From the IMG/VR virus record IMGVR_UViG_2636415906_000004: a stretch of DNA of 14,821 nt, one strand, 5' to 3'. This stretch comes from a virus (taxonomy: Duplodnaviria > Heunggongvirae > Uroviricota > Caudoviricetes). The position numbers and the translations under genes were made by a program. Positions 1 through 7,492 of this stretch are shown one piece after another; the stretch's first letter is position 1, and each line of letters begins with the position of its first letter. A model generated the notes under the pieces. That model worked only from the letters and a program-made list of their open reading frames with translations, searched no databases and had not been told where the DNA came from.

Positions 1-852
1 GTGATTGCTTTACTACTGATTCCCATTCTTGTTAGCGGCTACATTTTAGTAGTCGCTAATTTATATCATTACTATCAATTGCATCGATACGATGGCCAAC
101 TTTTGTATATAAAAGTTGCAGCTCATGGAACAATGAGTGTTGTTTTTGTGATTTTAGCAGCAGTAGTAGTGAAATATTTCTTTCCTAATTTTCACCCAAT
201 AGGAATGCTTTCAGATATTCTTAATGTCAAGAAAATAATAAATGGTAATAAAGCTGAAACATGGCTTGCTTTGATTTCATTATCATCAATTATATTTTCT
301 TTAATTTGGGTGGCTTTAGTTTGGTTAAAAAATATGTTTTTTGGTTTCTTTTGTGAAAAGAAACATCATGAAAACATCTTTCATGCTAAGAAACTTAGAG
401 TATTAAGAAAAACAATTTCTAACTCAACTTTGGATAGTATGCTTTTAGATGCATTAGAAAGCAGTCCTAAAGAACCGATTCTAATAACCTTATCTTCACG
501 GAAAGTTTATGTTGGTATAGTTAATGGAATTCAAGAACCAACAGAAAGCGAAGCGCCAAATAGTTATATATCAATTTTCCCTATTATGTCAGGCTATAGA
601 GATAAAGATACTCTTTCCATCACCTTTACGAATTCATATCCATCAGAAGTACTAGTGAGTTCAGCTATTACAATGGACTCCCAAAAAAGGCATAAAGTGA
701 AAAATATGGATATAATATTTCGTGCTGATGAAATTTCTCATCTTTCATGGTTCGATTTTGAACTATTTGAACAAGTCAATGATTCGATGAAGCACGATAC
801 CATTGACTTGCGAAGTGAGACTTACTCAGGGGAAACTAGCGAAAATTTTTAG
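1..852 (+). CDS. hypothetical AT-rich membrane protein (3 predicted N-terminal TM helices, ~170-aa C-terminal soluble domain); 5' end may lie upstream of the window
   Basis: Frame is open from the window edge (first codon GTG) to TAG at 850-852. Hydrophobic segments IALLLIPILVSGYILVVANL, MSVVFVILAAVVV and WLALISLSSIIFSLIWVALVWL. About 30-38% GC in sampled lines. Converges on the int 3' end with a 17-nt overlap. No family recognised. Confidence 0.5.
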   Translation: MIALLLIPILVSGYILVVANLYHYYQLHRYDGQLLYIKVAAHGTMSVVFVILAAVVVKYFFPNFHPIGMLSDILNVKKIINGNKAETWLALISLSSIIFSLIWVALVWLKNMFFGFFCEKKHHENIFHAKKLRVLRKTISNSTLDSMLLDALESSPKEPILITLSSRKVYVGIVNGIQEPTESEAPNSYISIFPIMSGYRDKDTLSITFTNSYPSEVLVSSAITMDSQKRHKVKNMDIIFRADEISHLSWFDFELFEQVNDSMKHDTIDLRSETYSGETSENF

Positions 853-2044
853 TAATTTCAGGTTTCGCTAAAATTTCAGCATGAGGTACACACACCCAAT
901 CGATATGATTTTTAGTATAAATTTTTGTAGATTTGGCGTCGCTGTGTGCCATGCGGCCTTGCGGATCTATTCCCTGCTGATCGAAAAGGTGTGCCGCCAG
1001 CGCACGGATTTCGTGGAAGGTTGGTCTTTCTTCCATGGGTACATTGTCAAATAGTCTCAACCGATCACGAATTGCGGAAAACGATCTACTTAAATAATCT
1101 GGGGCAACTTGTGTCGGATGTGAAACCTCTTTGCTTCGTTTAACTTGGCGTTCTGGGATCCTGTGAACGACAAACGGACTTGCCACATTATCTCTGCTAT
1201 CGTCAATTATCCGTTTCAACTCTTCACCAATCGGTATTGCAACGTGTGATGCCTCTTTTTTTTGTACTTTCTGCCTATGGATATATAGTGTCCCATAAAT
1301 ACCGTTTTTTGGCTGTTCTAACCATACGCACCCGCAGATGCCGTCTTTAGGTTCGCGAATTGAGTAACGGATTCGCGATACTTCGAGTCGTGCATGTGTA
1401 GTTTGCAATGCTAGATCCATTGCTGTTCTTAACCATGGTGCAGCGGCCTGCCTGATAGCTATAAAATGCTCGAGTGACAGGCGCCGTCTTTTCTTCTCAT
1501 CAGTCCTACGCATTTTTTTTCTGATGGCCGGGTTATCCAGCATTAGTGATTCATCGACCGCATAAGAGAACAACTTTTTAAGAAAGCTGACCTTTCTGTT
1601 CTGCACATTTGCGGATGCGCTGGCATGATATTTGTTGATGTAGGTATTAACGTGTTCAAGTTCGATATCGCATGCCGGAACATTTACGAAAAACGCTTTT
1701 ACGCGTAGAGCGTCATTTTTCCAGTCATCTAAGGTACTCTGGGAAGGACGTTCGTCTTCGATAATCCGGGTCATTATGTGATCAACATGTTCAGCAAATG
1801 GTTTTGCTTCTCCGATAACACCGCCAGATTCTCTAATAAGATTTTCTACTGATGGAGATAATTCTGGTCTCATCCTCAGGTTGTACTCTCTGGCGATTGC
1901 AATAGCTATTGCCCTATCCTTACCTATATTTTTCTTCTTTCCGGTAATAAGTGTGAATTTATAAACACCTCGATCTTTATCAAAAATCAGATAATCAGGA
2001 AGATGTCTGTATTCTTTTTTACGTGGCCTTGCCGCCATGGTCAC
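836..2044 (-). CDS. int: tyrosine-type site-specific recombinase (phage integrase)
   Basis: 402-aa ORF; C-terminal catalytic region HEIRALAAHLF...RMAHSDAKSTKIYTKNH fits the R..H..R..Y integrase pattern. Immediately preceded by, and overlapping (GTGA), an excisionase-like gene. First codon is GTG; an ATG lies two codons in. Confidence 0.85.
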   Translation of the reverse strand: MTMAARPRKKEYRHLPDYLIFDKDRGVYKFTLITGKKKNIGKDRAIAIAIAREYNLRMRPELSPSVENLIRESGGVIGEAKPFAEHVDHIMTRIIEDERPSQSTLDDWKNDALRVKAFFVNVPACDIELEHVNTYINKYHASASANVQNRKVSFLKKLFSYAVDESLMLDNPAIRKKMRRTDEKKRRRLSLEHFIAIRQAAAPWLRTAMDLALQTTHARLEVSRIRYSIREPKDGICGCVWLEQPKNGIYGTLYIHRQKVQKKEASHVAIPIGEELKRIIDDSRDNVASPFVVHRIPERQVKRSKEVSHPTQVAPDYLSRSFSAIRDRLRLFDNVPMEERPTFHEIRALAAHLFDQQGIDPQGRMAHSDAKSTKIYTKNHIDWVCVPHAEILAKPEITKNFR

Positions 2045-2250
2045 CCCTCGTTTATTAACTTGCGAACAGCTTGACTAACCATTGAGTCGACTCCCCATTT
2101 TTCTGTTTCGCAGACAAAAACAGAACCGTCCACGATGCGTCCCATGAGTAGACCGTTCTCGACCCAACGTTTTATCGTTCGGTTGTCAGGAATTGAGCCA
2201 TTAGAGAATTCACGGCGTCCCCATTGGCTCGCTTTCATTAGTTTTGCCAT
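2041..2250 (-). CDS. xis: excisionase (Xis-like winged-helix DNA-binding protein)
   Basis: Small ORF directly upstream of int with 4-nt overlap. Segment NRTIKRWVENGLLMGRIVDGSVFV parallels lambda Xis SLETVRRWVRECRIFPPPVKDGREYLF as I recall it. Start taken at the ATG (MAKLMK...) with GGAG upstream; the track ORF extends to a TTG at 2295. Confidence 0.7.
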   Translation of the reverse strand: MAKLMKASQWGRREFSNGSIPDNRTIKRWVENGLLMGRIVDGSVFVCETEKWGVDSMVSQAVRKLINEG

Positions 2251-2311
2251 GGCTGTTTCTCCACTTAGCCCGCTGCACTCGGGCAGTAATATCAAATTCC
2301 AGTCCTGATAA

Positions 2312-2470
2312 TTAATTTTGTTCTCTGGTTGCTACCTGTTTTATTGGCCTGATGCTGTCCAGGATAAGACGGCGACGCATGTTTGGCGCACCCCAACGGT
2401 AACCAGTCTTTTTGTCGTAGGATTCACAACGTCCGGCAACCCAGGACGTTTCAGTGGAATGTAATTTCAT
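2312..2470 (-). CDS. small hypothetical protein (52 aa) between the yfdS-like gene and xis
   Basis: ATG at 2470 and TAA at 2312-2314, hand-translated as MKLHSTETSWVAGRCESYDKKTGYRWGAPNMRRRLILDSIRPIKQVATREQN. Same strand as the operon. Below the 60-aa cutoff of the ORF track. Confidence 0.3.
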   Translation of the reverse strand: MKLHSTETSWVAGRCESYDKKTGYRWGAPNMRRRLILDSIRPIKQVATREQN

Positions 2471-2525
2471 CCGCTTTTCACCGTCTCGGGTGAGATAACA
2501 ATTCCTGTATGAGTTTTTATCACGC

Positions 2526-2888
2526 TCATTTCTTAGTCTCCGGTGCTTTCGGCATTACTGCCCAGTGAGTGATATTGACGTTTTCAAGGTCCCCGACCTG
2601 AAATGTCCACTGCCATTCTCCGGTTTCTTTTTGCCCCCATGTGTACCAGAGAGAACGCCAGCCAATCAGCCAGCCTTCTCCACTAGCATCAAATAACAGA
2701 ACACTTTCATTTGCTGGTGGCAGTTCAGCTGACACTGGTATTATTTTGTTTTCCAGTGCCGCACATTTAGCTTCAAGCGCGTTGAATTTACGTACCAGGT
2801 ACTCAGCATTTGTTTCGTTCACTTTCAGATCTCGCGGTACACATCTCCCACGAAGAAACCCTTCCATTTCGAAAACATTCATGCGCAT
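2526..2888 (-). CDS. yfdS: prophage early-operon protein, YfdS-like (120 aa), function unknown
   Basis: 120-aa ORF matching the size and cluster position of K-12 CPS-53 YfdS (from memory). Its codon-3 ATG overlaps the upstream gene's stop (ATGA). Confidence 0.55.
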   Translation of the reverse strand: MRMNVFEMEGFLRGRCVPRDLKVNETNAEYLVRKFNALEAKCAALENKIIPVSAELPPANESVLLFDASGEGWLIGWRSLWYTWGQKETGEWQWTFQVGDLENVNITHWAVMPKAPETKK

Positions 2889-3415
2889 TTGCGTAACTCC
2901 GATAACTCGTTAAAGCGTTCCATAAACATCCCGTAGGCATGGCCCGGTGCCAGTGGAATCACGTTGAACATCTCTGTTGCCGGGATACCTTCCAGTACAG
3001 GCCAGAAAGAGCCATCATCAAGCCCGAGATCGCGGCGTTCGGTTGCCAGCATGATGAGATCGGCATATTTCACGGGCGTACTCATAACTGGGGGTAACCC
3101 GTATTTCTCACGGATTACGGCGTCTATTTTTTCTTCCATTTGTTTATAGTCAGGAAGAAGGCGTTTCAGTGGTGCGGGAATGTCCTGGCAATACGCTTCT
3201 GTTGCATCATGCATTAACGCTTCAAAAGCAAATTCCTGCGGCACCAGCTGGCTGCAAAGAACCGCATGTTGGGCGACGCTGTAGAAGTGCGAAAGATGAC
3301 CGGCAAAGCGACAGATATTTGAAAGGGAAACCGCGATATCGTTAATATCGATGTCGTCTTTATTTATCCTGTCATAATAAAAATGCTTCCCGGAAAAAGT
3401 TTTAATAAATGACAT
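2879..3415 (-). CDS. yfdR: HD-domain phosphohydrolase (YfdR-like, 178 aa)
   Basis: HD-superfamily motif pattern: H in VAQHAV plus HD in ALMHDATEAY. ATG at 3415 has GGAG 6 nt upstream and gives 178 aa, the size I recall for K-12 YfdR. The track ORF extends to a GTG at 3442. Confidence 0.7.
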   Translation of the reverse strand: MSFIKTFSGKHFYYDRINKDDIDINDIAVSLSNICRFAGHLSHFYSVAQHAVLCSQLVPQEFAFEALMHDATEAYCQDIPAPLKRLLPDYKQMEEKIDAVIREKYGLPPVMSTPVKYADLIMLATERRDLGLDDGSFWPVLEGIPATEMFNVIPLAPGHAYGMFMERFNELSELRKCA

Positions 3416-3508
3416 TTTGTTCTCCACGTATATGCGCTGCACCGCGCTGAATTCTGGTAAAAAGAATCCCTCACCATCCTGCGATTATTGAGTAAATTAC
3501 GTTTCCAT

Positions 3509-3530
3509 AAATGCCCCCGCAGGGGCATTT
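3509..3530 (-). terminator. GC-rich hairpin (aaatgcccc-cgca-ggggcattt) downstream of the yfdQ-like gene; weak terminator candidate
   Basis: 9-bp perfect stem seen directly in the sequence. No clear U-tract on either strand, so function is uncertain. Confidence 0.2.
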
Positions 3531-3542
3531 GCAGTAATGAAA

Positions 3543-4367
3543 TCAGGCGGTGAAAGTACCAATAAAGGTTTCTACTTTGCTGTCCTTGAATTTCTCAACA
3601 AGCAGATCACGAAATTCGTTAGCCATTTCTTCCTGCACCGCCTCCAGCTGAATAATGCGCAGAACCAGTACAGGACGATCGCCAGTGATAATGCTGAGGC
3701 GTAATTTAAACGGACGTTCTTTCAGACCTTCAAACGGAACGCATTTAAATTCAAATGCCACTGGCATAATGTCTTTGGTCTTCGCTTCGACAGACTCCAT
3801 CAGGGAGCGTTTGCCGCTGAAGTCATTATCTTCAAAATCAGCGGTCTGGTTTGCTTCAATCGTGATTTTACGGACAGCCGCAGCCGCTTTTGTTGCCTGA
3901 ATGGCGTCACCATTAGCATCAAAGCCCACAAGGTAGTCGGCCCAGTCTTCAATCCATTCTGCCAGTGACTTCTGGGAGTTACGCTCGCCGTTAACAGACA
4001 ACAGAGCAGAGAACGGTGCTGTCTTTTTCAGTTTGAGAGTGGCGGTGTTATCTGCGTGACCTGGTTCATCAATAGTACCCAGGTTAAGCACACTGACGGC
4101 ACGCATATTATCGGCATCGATAAAGCAGCGGGTGCCTTCATCTGCAAGAACTTTAGAATAACGGGTAAAGTCATCGATGCTGGCAGTGGAAAGCGCACCA
4201 CGGAAACGGAAGCGATTTAAATTAAATTTTTCCAGATCATGAATGCGGAAATTCTCAGGCAATGCCACAGCATCGGCACCAATCTTACTGATAATTTCAT
4301 TAACACCCTGAGCAGAAATAAGGGCATGGATTTGATTAATTGCGGTTGCGTCTAAGTTCTGAGACAT
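3543..4367 (-). CDS. yfdQ: YfdQ-like prophage protein (274 aa), function unknown
   Basis: 274-aa ORF with ATG start and GAGGA SD 6 nt upstream. Size and neighbourhood match K-12 YfdQ (recollection). Confidence 0.65.
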
Positions 4368-4432
4368 AATAAGTCCTCACTATATAAAGATATTCAGTGA
4401 TGAGATAAATAATCAGTTTATTACGAACGATA

Positions 4433-4795
4433 TTAACGACCTGCTGCGCGGAGTTTTCCGTCAGGTTCACCGGCAAGAGTCAGTAATTGTCCCTGGTCTT
4501 CCTGCAGAATAGTCAGGCGACCACCGCGATTGACATACATCGGCGTTTCGGTGGTGTCTTCTTCGGAAATTTTCCCGCGGTTAGTCGGGCGAACATATGA
4601 GAGTTTGTGTTTGATTTTCACACGGTTCTCATCAAACGGTTCGATTTCCAGATTGAGTGAGACCTTCCCTTTGGTTTTCGTGTTCATCACACCGGAAGCG
4701 ACTTCACTGAGAACTGCGCCGATTTTGGTTTCAAATACGCCGCCGTCCAGCTCCCCGATAAATGCCTGCACATCAGTACTGCGTTCGCTAGCCAT
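4433..4795 (-). CDS. yfdP: YfdP-like prophage protein (120 aa), function unknown
   Basis: Start placed at the ATG of MASERSTDVQ..., which has a GAGGAG SD 7 nt upstream. The 106-codon N-terminal extension in the track ORF (to 5113) is R/C/P-rich and not protein-like. Confidence 0.6.
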   Translation of the reverse strand: MASERSTDVQAFIGELDGGVFETKIGAVLSEVASGVMNTKTKGKVSLNLEIEPFDENRVKIKHKLSYVRPTNRGKISEEDTTETPMYVNRGGRLTILQEDQGQLLTLAGEPDGKLRAAGR

Positions 4796-4843
4796 TTTGC
4801 TGCTCCTCATCATATCGACCCTGCAAGGCCGATTAGTTTCTCC

Positions 4844-4932
4844 ACAAAACAGAGAAGAACACCTGCGGTGGCAGCCGCCCGGATGGATTGGGTTATGAGC
4901 CCGTCGTCCGGTGATGCTCTTCTCTGTTTTGT
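4844..4932. repeat. 15-bp perfect inverted repeat (acaaaacagagaaga / tcttctctgttttgt) enclosing a 59-nt GC-rich spacer with internal stems
   Basis: Arms at 4844-4858 and 4918-4932 are exact reverse complements. The spacer contains ccgga/tccgg and gcgg/ccgc stems. Lies in a non-coding stretch. Confidence 0.55.
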
Positions 4933-4939
4933 AAAAAGA

Positions 4940-4978
4940 GCGGTACCAGCCGGAAGCAAGGGTACAAACTGGTACCGC
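4940..4978. repeat. 10-bp perfect inverted repeat (gcggtaccag / ctggtaccgc) with 19-nt loop
   Basis: Exact reverse-complement arms at 4940-4949 and 4969-4978, each containing a GGTACC palindrome. Followed by a nested gccagg...cctggc stem (4977-5031) around a ccggg-tgcct-cccgg hairpin. Confidence 0.5.
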
Positions 4979-5298
4979 CAGGACTACACACAGCATAAAG
5001 TTGTGGTGCCGGGTGCCTCCCGGTGCCTGGCGAAGGTTGCACACCAGACGGGTGGGTATCCACAGAAGGTCGACTGTCAGCCTCAACCTTAACCCGCGTG
5101 CGCTGAGCCGCATTCACCACAACGCTAAGGATTCTCTCTGGTTGAAAATACTTAGCTGTTATGTGCCTGCTTTTAGCCACATCAGGCGAGGTGGACCTGG
5201 TTATTCCCCAACAACAAGGAGCGGTGCTTACGGAAAAGCAGCAAGCGCGCTGCATCGGGTGAAGAGTGGTATCTGTCAGGGAATTACGTGGGGGCTTA

Positions 5299-5679
5299 AT
5301 GAGTAATAAATATTGCCAGGCGCTGGTGGAACTGCGGAACAAACCAGCCCATGAACTGAAGGAAGTGGGCGATCAGTGGCGCACGCCGGATAACATTTTC
5401 TGGGGAATTAACACCCTGTTTGGCCCGTTTGTTCTGGATCTGTTCACTGACGGTGATAACGCCAAATGTGCTGCGTATTACACGGCGGAAGACAACGCGC
5501 TGGCGCATGACTGGTCAGAACGTCTTGCGGAGCTTGAAGGTGCTGCCTTTGGTAATCCCCCATACAGCCGCGCCAGTCAGCATGAGGGGCAATACATCAC
5601 CGGCATGCGTTACATCATGAAACATGCCAGTGCCATGCGTGATAAGGGTGAAGGAACTATGTCAGCATTGCCATGGTAA
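5299..5679 (+). CDS. phage N6-adenine DNA methyltransferase, N-terminal fragment (probable truncated pseudogene)
   Basis: NPPY catalytic motif (AFGNPPYSRASQ) typical of amino-methyltransferases. The ORF stops 24 codons after the motif while a different frame continues into the Q-like sequence. Confidence 0.55.
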   Translation: MSNKYCQALVELRNKPAHELKEVGDQWRTPDNIFWGINTLFGPFVLDLFTDGDNAKCAAYYTAEDNALAHDWSERLAELEGAAFGNPPYSRASQHEGQYITGMRYIMKHASAMRDKGEGTMSALPW

Positions 5680-5971
5680 GGGAGAAGTCAGCACCGCGTG
5701 CAGAGGGTGTAAGGGTAAAGGTATTGTCCTGGATGAAAAAAGAACCCGGCTTCATGGCACGCCTGTTTATAAGATTTGTGGGCGTTGCAGTGGAAACCGG
5801 TTTAGCCGTTTACCAACCACACTGGCGCGGCTTCATGTCCAGAAGCTGGTACCAGACCTGACGGATTATCAGTGGTACAAAGGATATGCAGATGTCATTG
5901 ATAAACTGGTTACAAAGTGCTGGCAGGAGGAAGCTTACGCTGAAGCACAATTGAGAAGGGTGACGAGATAA
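5624..5971 (+). CDS. lambda-type Q antiterminator, C-terminal zinc-binding half only (N-terminally truncated, probable pseudogene)
   Basis: CQHCHGKG...CRGCKGKG...ICGRCSGNRFSRLP...LVPDLTD...KCWQEE...VTR aligns in pattern with the lambda Q C-terminus (CRDCHGTG...ECGRCKGVGYSRMP...LIPNLTQ...QCHKEE...AVTR) as I recall it. The ~100 N-terminal residues are absent. Confidence 0.6.
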   Translation: MPVPCVIRVKELCQHCHGKGEVSTACRGCKGKGIVLDEKRTRLHGTPVYKICGRCSGNRFSRLPTTLARLHVQKLVPDLTDYQWYKGYADVIDKLVTKCWQEEAYAEAQLRRVTR

Positions 5972-6003
5972 GCGATTTTCGCCGAAGATAACGACATAAT
6001 ACT

Positions 6004-6032
6004 TGTATTTCTCAAAAAATATGGATAAGATT
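6004..6032 (+). promoter_or_regulatory. candidate pR'-like sigma70 promoter (TTGTAT - 17 nt - TAAGAT) just downstream of Q
   Basis: Hexamers and spacing seen by eye. Position relative to Q and to the downstream terminator matches the lambdoid pR'/tR' layout. Confidence 0.25.
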
Positions 6033-6079
6033 TTCTCAACGATGGGGCTTGTGTATCTATCGTTGAACAATTTTTACGA

Positions 6080-6103
6080 CCTCGCTATTGCGAGGTTTTT
6101 TTA
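6080..6103 (+). terminator. rho-independent terminator (cctcgc-tatt-gcgagg followed by a T-run), tR'-like
   Basis: 6-bp perfect GC-rich stem, 4-nt loop, then a T-run of about 8, read directly from the sequence. Confidence 0.6.
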
Positions 6104-6139
6104 TGGTTTTTTTCTATTCAATCTACATCAAAATCAATG

Positions 6140-6148
6140 TGTTATAAT
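6140..6148 (+). promoter_or_regulatory. extended -10 promoter element TGtTATAAT upstream of the moron genes
   Basis: Perfect TGnTATAAT located 38 nt upstream of the ATG at 6186. Confidence 0.45.
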
Positions 6149-6185
6149 GTTTTCTGTAAAACAACATTAAAAACAGGAGAACATT

Positions 6186-6455
6186 ATGAAACTGACCTCT
6201 ATCCATCTTGAAATACTACGTCGAGTGAATGAATTGCAGCCAAAGGATTCTAGAATTCAGGCTGCATCATTACCTCATCTCTCAGCAAAAGAGGTTAACT
6301 TTGCTATTTCAGATCTTGCTGATATAGGTTTTATCGATGTTATACGAAGCAAATCTGCCGAAGGTGGATTGATTGCTAATGAGATAACGTCAAAAGGTTT
6401 TGCTTTTTTGAGTGAGATTGGCGCTGAAAAAAATTCATCGATGAGCACTCATTGA
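6186..6455 (+). CDS. hypothetical small protein (89 aa), first gene of the AT-rich moron
   Basis: ATG preceded by AGGAG at 8-nt spacing. AT-rich. No TM segment. No family recognised; a winged-helix fold is only a guess. Confidence 0.6.
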   Translation: MKLTSIHLEILRRVNELQPKDSRIQAASLPHLSAKEVNFAISDLADIGFIDVIRSKSAEGGLIANEITSKGFAFLSEIGAEKNSSMSTH

Positions 6456-6469
6456 TTTCTGCTTCAATC

Positions 6470-6487
6470 GGCTGCCAATTGGCAGCC
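6470..6487. repeat. 18-bp perfect palindrome ggctgcc-aatt-ggcagcc after the 89-aa gene (hairpin or dimer-binding site)
   Basis: Exact palindrome 15 nt after the stop codon. No U-tract follows. Near-identical to the hairpin at 7493-7510. Confidence 0.45.
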
Positions 6488-6520
6488 TAAACTGTAAAGT
6501 GAATTTAAAATCGCCTACAA

Positions 6521-6548
6521 TTGATGCTTAAATTTTGTTCTGTATCAT
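6521..6548 (+). promoter_or_regulatory. candidate sigma70 promoter (TTGATG - 16 nt - TATCAT) for the 268-aa gene
   Basis: Hexamers read by eye in the 165-bp AT-rich spacer between the two moron genes. Confidence 0.3.
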
Positions 6549-6652
6549 CTGCAGGTTTAGGGATATCACAGTAGCTTTCTGACAAGAAGAGTTCTTTTCT
6601 TCTACCAATGAAGTGGTTATGTTAACCTGCGCTAAATCGAGACTGGTGCGGA

Positions 6653-7459
6653 GTGGAATCGAAAGTGTCATATTTTTACAGAAGCAAGAATATTTCAGGT
6701 GTTTCTATAAATGAAGATAGCTTGATTAGCTTAAGCACGGCAATTGTCGAACGCTGCGTTAAAATGAATGAGCAAGCTCAAAAGGAAAGTAGGGAAGTTT
6801 GTGCTCAATGTGTTTTTTTTATTTTGTTCGATGGTAAGGGGTATAAAGTTGATTCTATCGGTGAGCTTGTGAAATACTTTAGACAGGCCACTAGGATTGA
6901 TCAAATAAATTTTACTATTGAAACTTATCAAAGTCGACAGTCTAACAGGATGAATGGATCTTGGATGGAGCTACGAATTGATGAGAGGAATTCAAATAGC
7001 AGCACAATGATTGTAGCATCGGAAGATAATGAGTGGGTTGACTCGTTATGGATTACGATTCAGGATTTACTTAACAAGTGCAAAAATAAATTTAGATTTT
7101 TTAGAACAGCTTGGACTATGTTAAGTATCCAGATTTCAGGTGTGACAGTTGGCTTTTTGCTTAGCTTATGGACAGCCTCAAAACTGGCGCCAAAACTATC
7201 AATCGATGGTGCATTTGCTTTATCATTTATTTGTATCTTTATTTTGTTTTCGAACTTATGGAGCTTTGCTATTCCATTAATAATTAAGCTTATCGACTTT
7301 TTGTTTCCTAGTGTTAAGTTTGTTATTAATGGTAAAAATTACTTTCACTGGAGTGTCCAGGCTATAATTGGAGCGATTGCCAGTGCGGTTATATTGTATT
7401 TTATTAGCTCCATGTTGCTTTTTGCATTAGAAATGTTAAATAGCATCATTAAGAAATAG
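6653..7459 (+). CDS. hypothetical membrane protein (268 aa): ~150-aa N-terminal soluble domain plus 3 C-terminal TM helices; second gene of the AT-rich moron
   Basis: Hydrophobic segments TMLSIQISGVTVGFLLSLWTA, GAFALSFICIFILFSNLWSFAIPLII and AIIGAIASAVILYFISSMLLFALEML. About 25% GC in sampled lines. Start is GTG at 6653 with poor SD spacing, so the true start is uncertain. No family recognised. Confidence 0.6.
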   Translation: MESKVSYFYRSKNISGVSINEDSLISLSTAIVERCVKMNEQAQKESREVCAQCVFFILFDGKGYKVDSIGELVKYFRQATRIDQINFTIETYQSRQSNRMNGSWMELRIDERNSNSSTMIVASEDNEWVDSLWITIQDLLNKCKNKFRFFRTAWTMLSIQISGVTVGFLLSLWTASKLAPKLSIDGAFALSFICIFILFSNLWSFAIPLIIKLIDFLFPSVKFVINGKNYFHWSVQAIIGAIASAVILYFISSMLLFALEMLNSIIKK

Positions 7460-7492
7460 TTAATGAATTAGTTATAATTACATCAATTCTAT

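What the first reader, a model, noticed from the sequence alone, without database searches (positions are those of the whole stretch)
5299..5971. Deletion junction joining an adenine-methyltransferase N-terminus to the C-terminal half of a lambda-type Q
The NPPY-containing methyltransferase frame stops at 5679, while a +1 frame that opens at 5624 carries only the C-terminal zinc-binding half of a lambda-Q-like antiterminator. Both genes belong to the nin-to-Q interval of lambdoid phages, so an internal deletion has fused their remains. Q is most likely dead, which would leave the downstream late genes (moron and lysis cassette) without antitermination, and the methyltransferase lacks its C-terminal portion.
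Basis: partly seen in the sequence, partly recalled or inferred. Interest (0 to 1): 0.4.

Follow-up and report, generated by a model that had tools for sequence, protein, structure and literature searches.

The report
Deletion scar fusing dead Dam and Q
This is a real deletion scar in a decayed E. coli prophage: it joins the front half of a phage DNA methylase gene to the back 42% of a lambda-type Q antiterminator gene. That is ordinary and already annotated, but the break on the Q side lies at a nucleotide where at least ten independent deletions in other strains also end.

Summary
Window 5299-5679 encodes residues 1-117 of a 217-aa phage Dam (NPPY kept) plus nine out-of-frame codons. Window 5624-5971 carries residues 145-250 of a 250-aa lambda-family Q of the SfV type.

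The two are joined at a 5-bp microhomology, GGGTG (5646-5650). This removes 715 bp relative to the closest relative and 3,282 bp relative to intact phage SfV. The lost genes are the Dam C-terminus, a LexA-like gene, RusA, KilA-N, DUF968 and Q residues 1-144.

PGAP already marks both as pseudogenes. The junction occurs in 20 of 5,426 complete E. coli genomes, many from poultry, including APEC O78 strains.

It is one of three deletion scars in an ~11-kb prophage remnant beside tRNA-Pro. The remnant has also lost its repressor, replication genes and structural genes.

By comparison with the Qlambda structures, the Q fragment lacks the torus-forming N-terminus and half of the body, so antitermination is lost. 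The pR'-like promoter, pause element and terminator downstream are intact.

One result was unexpected. At least ten different left partners are joined to the same Q nucleotide (431-433) in different Q alleles. Each allele but one has a 99.7-100% identical intact counterpart. This points to a recurrent breakpoint whose cause I could not find.

The parts
5204..5299 (+). 3' remnant of the yfdN/PerC-family gene. It contains deletion scar 1 at 5219-5220 (2-bp overlap), where 4,148 bp present in the relative L002 are missing. The missing block holds an ECs1072-family gene, the cI-like ymfK, the cro-like ymfT, ymfL, DUF4222, an HTH replication gene and most of yfdN.
   Evidence: PGAP annotation of the identical locus; L002 annotation; blastn coordinates; junction sequences; size.
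5299..5679 (+). Truncated phage N6-adenine methyltransferase (Dam'). Native codons 1-117 occupy 5299-5649 and include NPPY at 5554-5565. Nine foreign codons (EGTMSALPW), read from the Q sequence out of frame, follow, with the stop at 5677-5679.
   Evidence: The full-length 217-aa form occurs in L002 and in SfV.
5646..5650 (.). Deletion junction 2: the 5-bp microhomology GGGTG, present at both parental sites. 715 bp are missing relative to L002 and 3,282 bp relative to SfV.
5624..5971 (+). ORF carrying the Q remnant ('Q). Eight foreign codons from an ATG in the +1 frame of dam come first. Q residues V144/K145 to R250 follow (5648/5651-5968), with the stop at 5969-5971. The fragment keeps CxxC motifs 2-4 (nt 5660, 5699, 5777) and the C-terminal HTH half of the body.
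6003..6046 (+). pR'-like late promoter and pause element. The -35 TTGTAT is at 6003-6008, followed by a 17-nt spacer and the -10 TAAGAT at 6026-6031. CTCAACGATGGG at 6035-6046 is identical to the 12 nt that span the AACGAT element downstream of lambda Q, at the same spacing from the -10.
   Evidence: Direct comparison with the lambda and SfV sequences; coordinates. The consensus scan did not list it, because it matches only 8 of 12 hexamer positions. That this element is pR' with its sigma-dependent pause site in lambda rests on my own knowledge and on PMC9388147.
6078..6106 (+). Intrinsic-terminator-like hairpin and T-run, in the tR'-equivalent position. SfV has an annotated terminator at the corresponding place.
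6186..8836 (+). What remains of the late operon. It holds two moron ORFs (6186-6455, with a weak DUF2513 match, and 6665-7459, which has no family match), two holin genes (7568-8222) and a GH19 endolysin (8222-8836).
   Evidence: Coordinates are L001 minus 1901.
9921..9922 (.). Deletion scar 3. An HNH endonuclease gene truncated at nt 140 is joined to distal tail-region DNA, and 3,105 bp present in L002 are missing. Its left end (…GCGCGGATA|) is the same nucleotide at which L002 already has a different junction.

Best explanation
The feature is a scar of illegitimate, microhomology-mediated deletion in a decaying SfV/e14/CPS-53-like prophage. The prophage is integrated next to tRNA-Pro on the E. 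coli chromosome.

Recombination between two GGGTG pentamers, one in dam codon 116-118 and one in Q codon 143-144, removed the DNA between them. The result is two out-of-frame gene fragments.

**Dam' (inferred inactive).** It keeps the N-terminal half with NPPY. It lacks the C-terminal 100 residues, which cover the second half of the family profile.

**'Q (inferred inactive as an antiterminator).** Mapped onto Qlambda, it lacks the N-terminal 44-residue torus that enters the RNA-exit channel. It also lacks the residue 45-60 helix that contacts the flap-tip helix, and the first two helices of the four-helix body. In addition it lacks the first of its four CxxCxG motifs. No Shine-Dalgarno-like sequence precedes its only ATG (5624).

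**Cis elements.** The sites on which Q would act (pR'-like promoter, AACGAT pause element, terminator) and the lysis cassette are intact. Transcripts from the late promoter should therefore stop at 6078-6106, unless a co-resident prophage supplies a Q of the same specificity.

**Context.** The same remnant has two more scars, which removed the immunity/replication block and the morphogenesis genes. The Q lesion is thus one step of progressive decay, not the cause of defectiveness.

**Recurrent end.** The Q-side end of the deletion lies at a breakpoint that recurs (see the novel case).

**Shown:** the junction, its coordinates, the missing DNA, family membership and distribution. **Inferred:** the loss of both activities, and silence of the late genes.
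For: - **Junction mapping.** Searches place the junction. The size is 715 bp relative to L002 and 3,282 bp relative to SfV.
- **Likely precursor.** L002 lies at the same chromosomal site (narP, autotransporter, tRNA-Pro, integrase). It is 100% identical on both sides of the junction. L002 itself carries an earlier in-frame fusion of the LexA-like gene to Q.
- **Intact reference.** SfV has the order dam, orf42, RusA, orf44, orf45, Q.
- **Family assignments.**
- **Qlambda domain map.** The torus is residues 1-44. The body is residues 61-113 plus 153-207. The zinc-ribbon arm is residues 114-152. Deleting residues 1-38 abolishes antitermination but not binding to the Q binding element (QBE). All from PMC9388147.
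- **Mapping onto Qlambda.** The phmmer alignment places Q 160-250 on Qlambda 117-207.
- **Full length is the norm.** 248 of 250 phage records cover at least 80% of the 250-aa Q. All close Dam relatives are full length.
- **Existing annotation.** PGAP flags both pieces as pseudogenes.
- **Distribution.** 20 complete genomes carry scars 1 and 2 together, and none carries scar 2 alone. The additional contigs are collinear with the window.
Against: - No expression or activity data exist for either fragment.
- The Q fragment keeps the HTH helices and most of the zinc ribbon. In Qlambda these make the DNA contacts, so residual DNA binding cannot be excluded.
- The Q-fragment ORF is intact, with an ATG. 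This carries no weight, because the allele is 100% identical to an intact one and the deletion is therefore recent.
- I cannot tell whether the deletion was one 3.3-kb event from an SfV-like state or a 715-bp event from an L002-like state. The older junction would lie inside the lost segment.
Confidence: 0.9

Rival explanations
1. The Q C-terminal fragment has been co-opted. It still binds the Q binding element at pR'-type promoters without antiterminating. It thereby acts as a competitor that dampens late-gene expression of related resident or incoming phages.
For: - The fragment retains what corresponds in Qlambda to the HTH (H4-H5) and the zinc-ribbon arm, the two DNA-contacting parts.
- Qlambda lacking residues 1-38 still binds the QBE.
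- Fragments starting at exactly this residue recur in many strains, some as in-frame fusions to Cro-like or RusA N-termini. In one of these (L006) the fusion lies divergent from a cI-like repressor gene. A diverged example, P0041, has the same layout, but its junction could not be verified.
Against: - Half of the four-helix body (lambda 61-113) and one CxxC motif are missing, so stable folding is doubtful.
- In this window the fragment is out of frame with dam. No Shine-Dalgarno-like sequence precedes its ATG, and the pR/immunity region has been deleted.
- Selection for a domain would not fix the break to a single nucleotide.
- Each junction allele but one (97.2%) is 99.7-100% identical to an intact allele, so purifying selection cannot be read.
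Confidence: 0.07
2. The short forms are natural gene versions, for example an internally initiated Q isoform and a short methylase, and not deletion products.
For: - The protein database holds ORFs of 101-111 aa that start at or near this residue, such as P0012 'MKELCQ…'.
- In intact Q, a GTG at codon 144 is preceded by AAGGAAGAG.
Against: - The P0012 loci are Q genes split by an IS3-family insertion at Q nt 370-373. The short ORF there is only the gene caller's first start downstream.
- The left partners are recognisable truncated genes: Dam at residue 117 of 217, RusA, a Cro-like gene and DUF968.
- 248 of 250 phage records have the full-length Q.
Confidence: 0.02
3. The junction is an assembly or sequencing artefact.
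For: None found.
Against: The identical junction is present in 20 complete chromosomes from different laboratories and hosts, and in independent IMG/VR and metagenome contigs.
Confidence: 0.01

Closest known systems
Q antiterminator of phage SfV (AAL89448, 250 aa) and the Qlambda family (PF03589; structures 4MO1, 7UBJ-7UBN)
   Same: The retained residues match SfV-type Q (the full-length relative is 98.8% identical to SfV Q). They align with Qlambda 117-207, which is the zinc ribbon plus the HTH half of the body. The gene sits directly upstream of a pR'-like promoter with the lambda AACGAT element and a terminator.
   Different: Residues 1-144 are absent. In addition, the full-length SfV type carries an insert of about 39 aa relative to Qlambda. 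The insert adds two CxxCxGxG motifs, giving four in all in a DnaJ-like pattern (Pfam PF00684 match E=5e-07, below its cut-off). The fragment keeps three of the four.
Phage N6-adenine methyltransferase (TIGR01712 / PF05869), e.g. SfV Dam, 217 aa
   Same: 98% identical to SfV dam over the retained 430 nt. It scores above the NCBIfam cut-off (140.5 against 97 bits) and NPPY is present.
   Different: Only profile positions 1-89 of 165 are present. The C-terminal 100 residues are replaced by 9 unrelated ones.
Decay of cryptic lambdoid prophages by deletion (E. coli K-12 CPS-53/KpLE1, e14, Qin)
   Same: The gene set is the same (yfdN, yfdP, yfdQ and yfdR homologues; ymfK/ymfT/ymfL in the less deleted relative). 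Several internal deletions with 2-5 bp microhomology leave pseudogene pairs. From memory, K-12 CPS-53 also carries a truncated methyltransferase (yfdM) next to yfdN.
   Different: The attachment site differs (tRNA-Pro here) and so do the breakpoints. The Q-side end coincides with a breakpoint used repeatedly in other strains.
Deletions with one fixed end at a nick or stall site (from memory: deletions anchored at the nick sites of M13 and pC194 origins; microhomology-mediated template switching)
   Same: One end is fixed to the nucleotide. The other ends vary over about 0.5-9 kb, with 2-5 nt of terminal microhomology.
   Different: No nickase, origin, IS end or hairpin was found at the Q site. 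The resemblance concerns pattern only.

Membership tests
Qlambda-family antiterminator (PF03589) | Sequence match to the family above the curated threshold, and homology to solved Qlambda | tested here: met
   The fragment scores 106.7 bits against a cut-off of 26.7. The full-length relative hits 7ubm_Q at E=1.5e-37. PF03589 is named the Qlambda family in PMC9388147.
Qlambda-family antiterminator (PF03589) | N-terminal segment that forms the torus in the RNA-exit channel and contacts the flap-tip helix (lambda residues 1-60), required for antitermination | tested here: not met
   The fragment starts at residue 144/145 of 250, which corresponds to about residue 117 of Qlambda. The requirement is taken from PMC9388147.
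Qlambda-family antiterminator (PF03589) | Complete four-helix body with HTH, plus the zinc ribbon | tested here: not met
   Only the second half of the body (lambda 153-207) and three of four CxxC motifs remain.
Qlambda-family antiterminator (PF03589) | Gene immediately upstream of a late promoter with a sigma-dependent pause element and a terminator | tested here: met
   -35, -10, CTCAACGATGGG and a hairpin with a T-run lie at 6003-6106.
Qlambda-family antiterminator (PF03589) | Antitermination activity | not testable with these tools
   This needs a reporter or in vitro transcription assay.
Phage N6-adenine methyltransferase (TIGR01712/PF05869) | Match above the curated cut-off, with the NPPY catalytic motif | tested here: met
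   140.5 bits against 97.05. NPPY lies at aa 86-89.
Phage N6-adenine methyltransferase (TIGR01712/PF05869) | Full-length domain (profile positions 1-165) | tested here: not met
   Only positions 1-89 are matched. The full-length relative matches 1-165.
Microhomology-mediated deletion scar | Both flanks are collinear with a relative that carries intervening DNA; a short direct repeat sits at both parental sites; no mobile-element end lies at the joint | tested here: met
   There is no second or inverted copy of the 16 nt at the Q side of the junction anywhere in the window.
IS-mediated adjacent deletion | An IS end abutting the fixed breakpoint | tested here: not met
   The IS3-family insertions found in this Q type lie at Q nt 370-373, not 431-433. 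No IS is present at any of the junctions examined.
CRISPR (type I-E) self-targeting deletion | An E. coli array spacer matching the protospacer next to the AAG at Q nt 433-435 | tested here: not met
   A repeat-plus-spacer query covered at least 80% in 0 of 5,426 genomes.

The most novel reading that the evidence does not exclude
Nucleotides 431-433 of SfV/Qin-type Q genes (…GGGTG|AAGGAACT…) are an intrinsic, sequence-determined hot spot for one-ended illegitimate recombination. The cause could be a site-specific nick or a replication stall. One untested candidate is the putative HNH nuclease in the DUF968 gene immediately upstream of Q.

If this holds, independent prophages of this family are disabled again and again by deletions that run leftwards from the same nucleotide. 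That would be a convergent, mechanistically biased route of prophage domestication.

A second re-used end (…CGGATA|) occurs in RusA and in the HNH gene of this same remnant.
Probability: 0.45. Interest if true: 0.55.

Novelty: new member of a known kind. Interest (0 to 1): 0.3.

Why it matters
The junction itself documents ordinary prophage decay in a poultry-associated E. coli lineage. It explains why the lysis cassette of this remnant should be silent. It adds nothing beyond the existing PGAP annotation except the exact breakpoint, the missing genes and the order of events.

The part that could matter is the recurrence. If deletions that inactivate Q keep ending at one nucleotide in independent alleles, prophage domestication in this family is shaped by a local mutational mechanism and not only by selection. 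The site would also offer a natural, mappable substrate for studying one-ended illegitimate recombination in E. coli.

Tried and rejected
1. **Not a lambda-type Q.** I first expected PF03589 to be the phage-82 type.
2. **IS-mediated deletion.** The ORFs starting 'MKELCQ…' suggested an IS at the hot spot. The IS3-family element (and, in one locus, also a group II intron reverse-transcriptase gene lying between the two Q pieces) sits at Q nt 370-373.
3. **Transposon-like end.** There is no inverted or second copy of AAGGAACTATGTCAGC in the window, and Q is continuous across the site in 124 intact loci.
4. **Hairpin or cruciform at the site.** The DNA fold of 120 nt gives z = -0.67. The repeat search found nothing at the site.
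5. **CRISPR I-E spacer against the adjacent protospacer.** None was found in 5,426 genomes.
6. **Single ancient junction followed by anchored erosion.** This is disfavoured. Every junction-bearing Q allele but one (L006, 97.2%) has a 99.7-100% identical intact counterpart, while junction alleles differ from one another by 1-10%. It is not excluded for scar 3, where L002 and the window share an end.
7. **Literature.** A search for a described Q-gene deletion hot spot returned nothing relevant.
8. **Pattern scans for further junction types.** IMG/VR and JGI metagenomes gave only the window type and one more type (ymfL|Q). The GTDB species representatives gave none.
9. **P0041.** This is a 68%-identical homologue with a short N-terminus. 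It could not be classified for lack of an intact relative and is not counted.

Full report
**1. What is there**

The window is E. coli chromosome. Window 1-13200 is 99.97% identical to NZ_CP076654 (strain NC19). The 1,101 bases around the finding are identical in 19 complete genomes and 99.9% identical in a twentieth, APEC O78. Many of these strains come from poultry.

- The ORF list shows a Dam-like frame at 5266/5299..5679 and a Q-like frame at 5624..5971, one base out of phase.
- Pfam assigns the first to PF05869, covering only profile positions 3-88 of 169. It assigns the second to PF03589.
- NCBIfam TIGR01712 matches positions 1-89 of 165 in the window protein, and 1-165 in the full-length relative.
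- NPPY lies at residues 86-89.
- NCBI's own annotation of the identical locus already lists 'phage N-6-adenine-methyltransferase, missing C-terminus' and 'antitermination protein Q, missing N-terminus' as adjacent pseudogenes.

**2. Where the break is and what is missing**

A less deleted copy of the same prophage sits at the same chromosomal site in strain CFIAFB20180540 (L002). The site is narP, autotransporter, tRNA-Pro, then integrase.

- Window 5219-5650 equals L002 7001-7432. Window 5646-9922 equals L002 8143-12419. Both are 100% identical.
- The 5-bp overlap GGGTG occurs at both parental sites. The deletion is therefore 715 bp with 5-bp microhomology.
- L002 is itself already deleted. 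Its Q is an in-frame fusion of the first 23 codons of a LexA-like gene to Q codon ~29.
- Intact, sequenced phage SfV gives the full order: orf40 (PerC-like), dam (217 aa), orf42 (LexA-like), orf43 (RusA), orf44 (KilA-N), orf45 (DUF968), Q (250 aa).
- Against SfV the window lacks 3,282 bp.
- I cannot tell whether this was lost in one step or two, because L002's older junction lies inside the lost segment.
- L002 shares the insertion site, the flanking sequence and one further truncation end with the window. This makes an L002-like precursor likely.

**3. The surroundings**

The junction is one of three scars.

- **Scar 1 (5219-5220).** It removes 4,148 bp. The lost block holds the cI-like and cro-like genes, ymfL, the replication gene and most of yfdN.
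- **Scar 3 (9921-9922).** It removes 3,105 bp beyond a truncated HNH gene.
- **What remains.** Integrase, the yfdP/yfdQ/yfdR block, the two pseudogenes, two moron ORFs, two holins, a GH19 endolysin and tail-fibre debris.
- **Co-occurrence.** All 20 genomes carry scars 1 and 2 together, and none carries scar 2 alone. Four further contigs from IMG/VR and metagenomes are collinear with the window.

**4. What kind of Q**

I expected PF03589 to be a non-lambda type. The evidence says otherwise.

- Yin et al. (PMC9388147) name PF03589 as the Qlambda family.
- The full-length relative hits Qlambda chains 7ubm_Q, 4mo1_A and 7ubj_A at E=1.5e-37 to 5.6e-22.
- The alignment places residues 1-120 on lambda 1-125 and residues 160-250 on lambda 117-207. 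The SfV type therefore has an insert of about 39 aa.
- With the insert there are four CxxCxG motifs, at C113, C148, C161 and C187. They resemble the DnaJ zinc centre, although the Pfam match is below its cut-off.
- The paper gives the Qlambda parts. Residues 1-44 fold into the torus inside the RNA-exit channel. Residues 45-60 contact the flap-tip helix. The body is residues 61-113 plus 153-207 and contains the HTH. The arm is the zinc ribbon, residues 114-152. Deleting residues 1-38 abolishes antitermination but not DNA binding.
- The window fragment (residues 145-250) therefore lacks everything needed to act on RNA polymerase, half of the body and the first Cys pair. It keeps most of the DNA-contacting parts.
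- Loss of antitermination is thus a strong inference. Residual DNA binding is open.

**5. Is the short form normal?**

It is not.

- In the phage collection, 248 of 250 records with a Q match cover at least 80% of the 250 residues. Examples include SfV, Stx2c phages, lambda, HK97 and HK022.
- Close Dam relatives are all full length. Even the most distant partial matches extend beyond residue 117.
- Short ORFs such as P0012 ('MKELCQ…') are gene calls downstream of an IS3-family insertion at Q nt 370-373.

**6. The target of Q is still there**

Downstream of the stop codon lie the following elements.

- TTGTAT at 6003-6008, a 17-nt spacer, then TAAGAT at 6026-6031.
- Six bases later, AACGAT inside CTCAACGATGGG (6035-6046). 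These 12 bases are identical to lambda at the same spacing.
- A hairpin with a T-run at 6078-6106. SfV has an annotated terminator at the equivalent place.

Late transcription should therefore start and then stop after roughly 65 nt, unless Q is supplied in trans. I did not test whether a second, intact Q of this type exists in the same genomes.

**7. An unexpected recurrence**

Strain FT130 (L005) joins RusA to Q at the same Q nucleotide, in a Q allele only ~92% identical to the window's. I therefore examined the short Q-containing proteins returned by the database search and fetched their DNA.

At least ten different left partners abut the same Q sequence, …TG|AAGGAACT…:

- Dam (this window)
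- RusA after D69
- RusA after V61
- RusA after L50
- a Cro-like gene
- ymfL
- DUF968, two alleles at two positions
- the region equivalent to window 5008
- a winged-helix gene

.

These appear to be separate events.

- Each junction-bearing Q allele has an intact counterpart that is 99.7-100% identical (97.2% for one).
- The junction alleles differ from each other by 1-10%, including at positions +9 and +21 from the joint.

Chance is unlikely.

- By my hand count of about 37 distinct junction types seen in Q, 10 fall in this 3-nt window.
- Under uniform or 'any TG' models this has probability 1e-9 or less.
- The protein census has an apparent length cap. This biases it against breaks further upstream, but not against breaks further downstream.

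Other observations on re-used ends:

- Microhomology at the joint is 2-5 nt, always including the T.
- The RusA D69 end (…CCGGATA|) is joined to four Q positions: nt 354, 433, 459 and 492. Each shows 'G.TA(A)'-type microhomology.
- The HNH end of scar 3 in this window (…GCGCGGATA|) is the same nucleotide at which L002 has a different junction.

I tested and rejected several causes for the Q site.

- An IS at the site.
- A terminal repeat.
- A hairpin.
- A CRISPR spacer.

The gene just upstream of Q (DUF968) carries a putative HNH nuclease domain, scoring 27.1 bits against a cut-off of 26.6 in SfV orf45. This is only a lead. In complete genomes the other junction types are rare: one genome for the FT130 type and none for the two other types tested.

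**8. Verdict**

The finding is real and correctly interpreted. As stated, it is ordinary: a pseudogene pair at a microhomology deletion in a prophage remnant, already flagged by the standard annotation pipeline.

The one item worth a further look is that its Q-side end belongs to a recurrent, nucleotide-precise breakpoint whose cause is unknown.

Noticed in passing
window 5646-5651; loci L005 7262, L006 4109, L008 4154, L009 144, L015 4012, L018 3304, L079 (minus strand) ~5902: The Q-side end of the junction (Q nt 431-433, …TG|AAGGAACT) is shared by at least ten deletions with different left partners. They occur in different Q alleles, each but one with a 99.7-100% identical intact counterpart. 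The cause is unknown.
   Followed up: partly
window 9921-9922; L002 12419; L003 9277: Scar 3 re-uses an end. The HNH gene is cut after …GCGCGGATA both in this window (joined to distal tail DNA) and in L002 (joined to a tape-measure fragment). The RusA end re-used in other strains reads …CCGGATA|, and one further left partner of unknown identity (L153) also ends in …CCGGATA|.
   Followed up: partly
window 5219-5220: Scar 1 is a 4,148-bp deletion with 2-bp overlap. It removes the whole immunity/replication block. It also removes the -35 signal that the SfV record annotates for a dam promoter (L149 2708-2713); the annotated -10 is retained.
   Followed up: partly
L002 7731-8468: The less deleted relative carries an in-frame fusion of the first 23 codons of the LexA-like gene (SfV orf42) to Q codon ~29. 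This is a 245-aa chimeric ORF that keeps most of Q. An IMG/VR contig (L046) has a Q that starts at about the same place (nt 76).
   Followed up: no
window 4931-5153, minus strand: Rfam match to the sRNA family STnc100 over the full model: 44.6 bits (gathering score 47), E=9e-08. It lies just left of scar 1, in a region that PGAP calls a frameshifted hypothetical gene.
   Followed up: no
L011 449-4001; L012, L013 and L014 upstream of the Q C-terminal ORF; L038: In other E. coli strains the same Q type is split by an IS3-family element with a 4-bp duplication of Q nt 370-373. In one genome a group II intron reverse-transcriptase gene also lies between the two Q pieces. Another locus has an insertion at nt 505-509.
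   Followed up: partly
window 6186-7459; L006 4590-5828; L154 4983-6023; L149 7003-8399: The slot between the terminator after Q and the holin genes holds different cargo in different relatives. Here it holds a weak DUF2513-like ORF and a 264-268-aa ORF with no family match. One relative has an nSTAND1/AAA ATPase, another an AbiJ-like gene, and SfV an N4/N6 methyltransferase.
   Followed up: no
L003 2659-2666, 3796-3803, 4066-4073: Three Chi sequences (GCTGGTGG) lie on the plus strand of the RusA-to-DUF968 interval in the intact relative, inside the DNA lost from the window. They are oriented to act on RecBCD entering from the Q side.
   Followed up: no
L006 3211-4429; L154 3881-4857: Two minimal remnants, one from E. 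coli and one from a more distant host. In each, a cI-like repressor gene lies divergent from a short ORF ending in the Q C-terminal domain. A defence-like gene and a lysis cassette follow directly.
   Followed up: no
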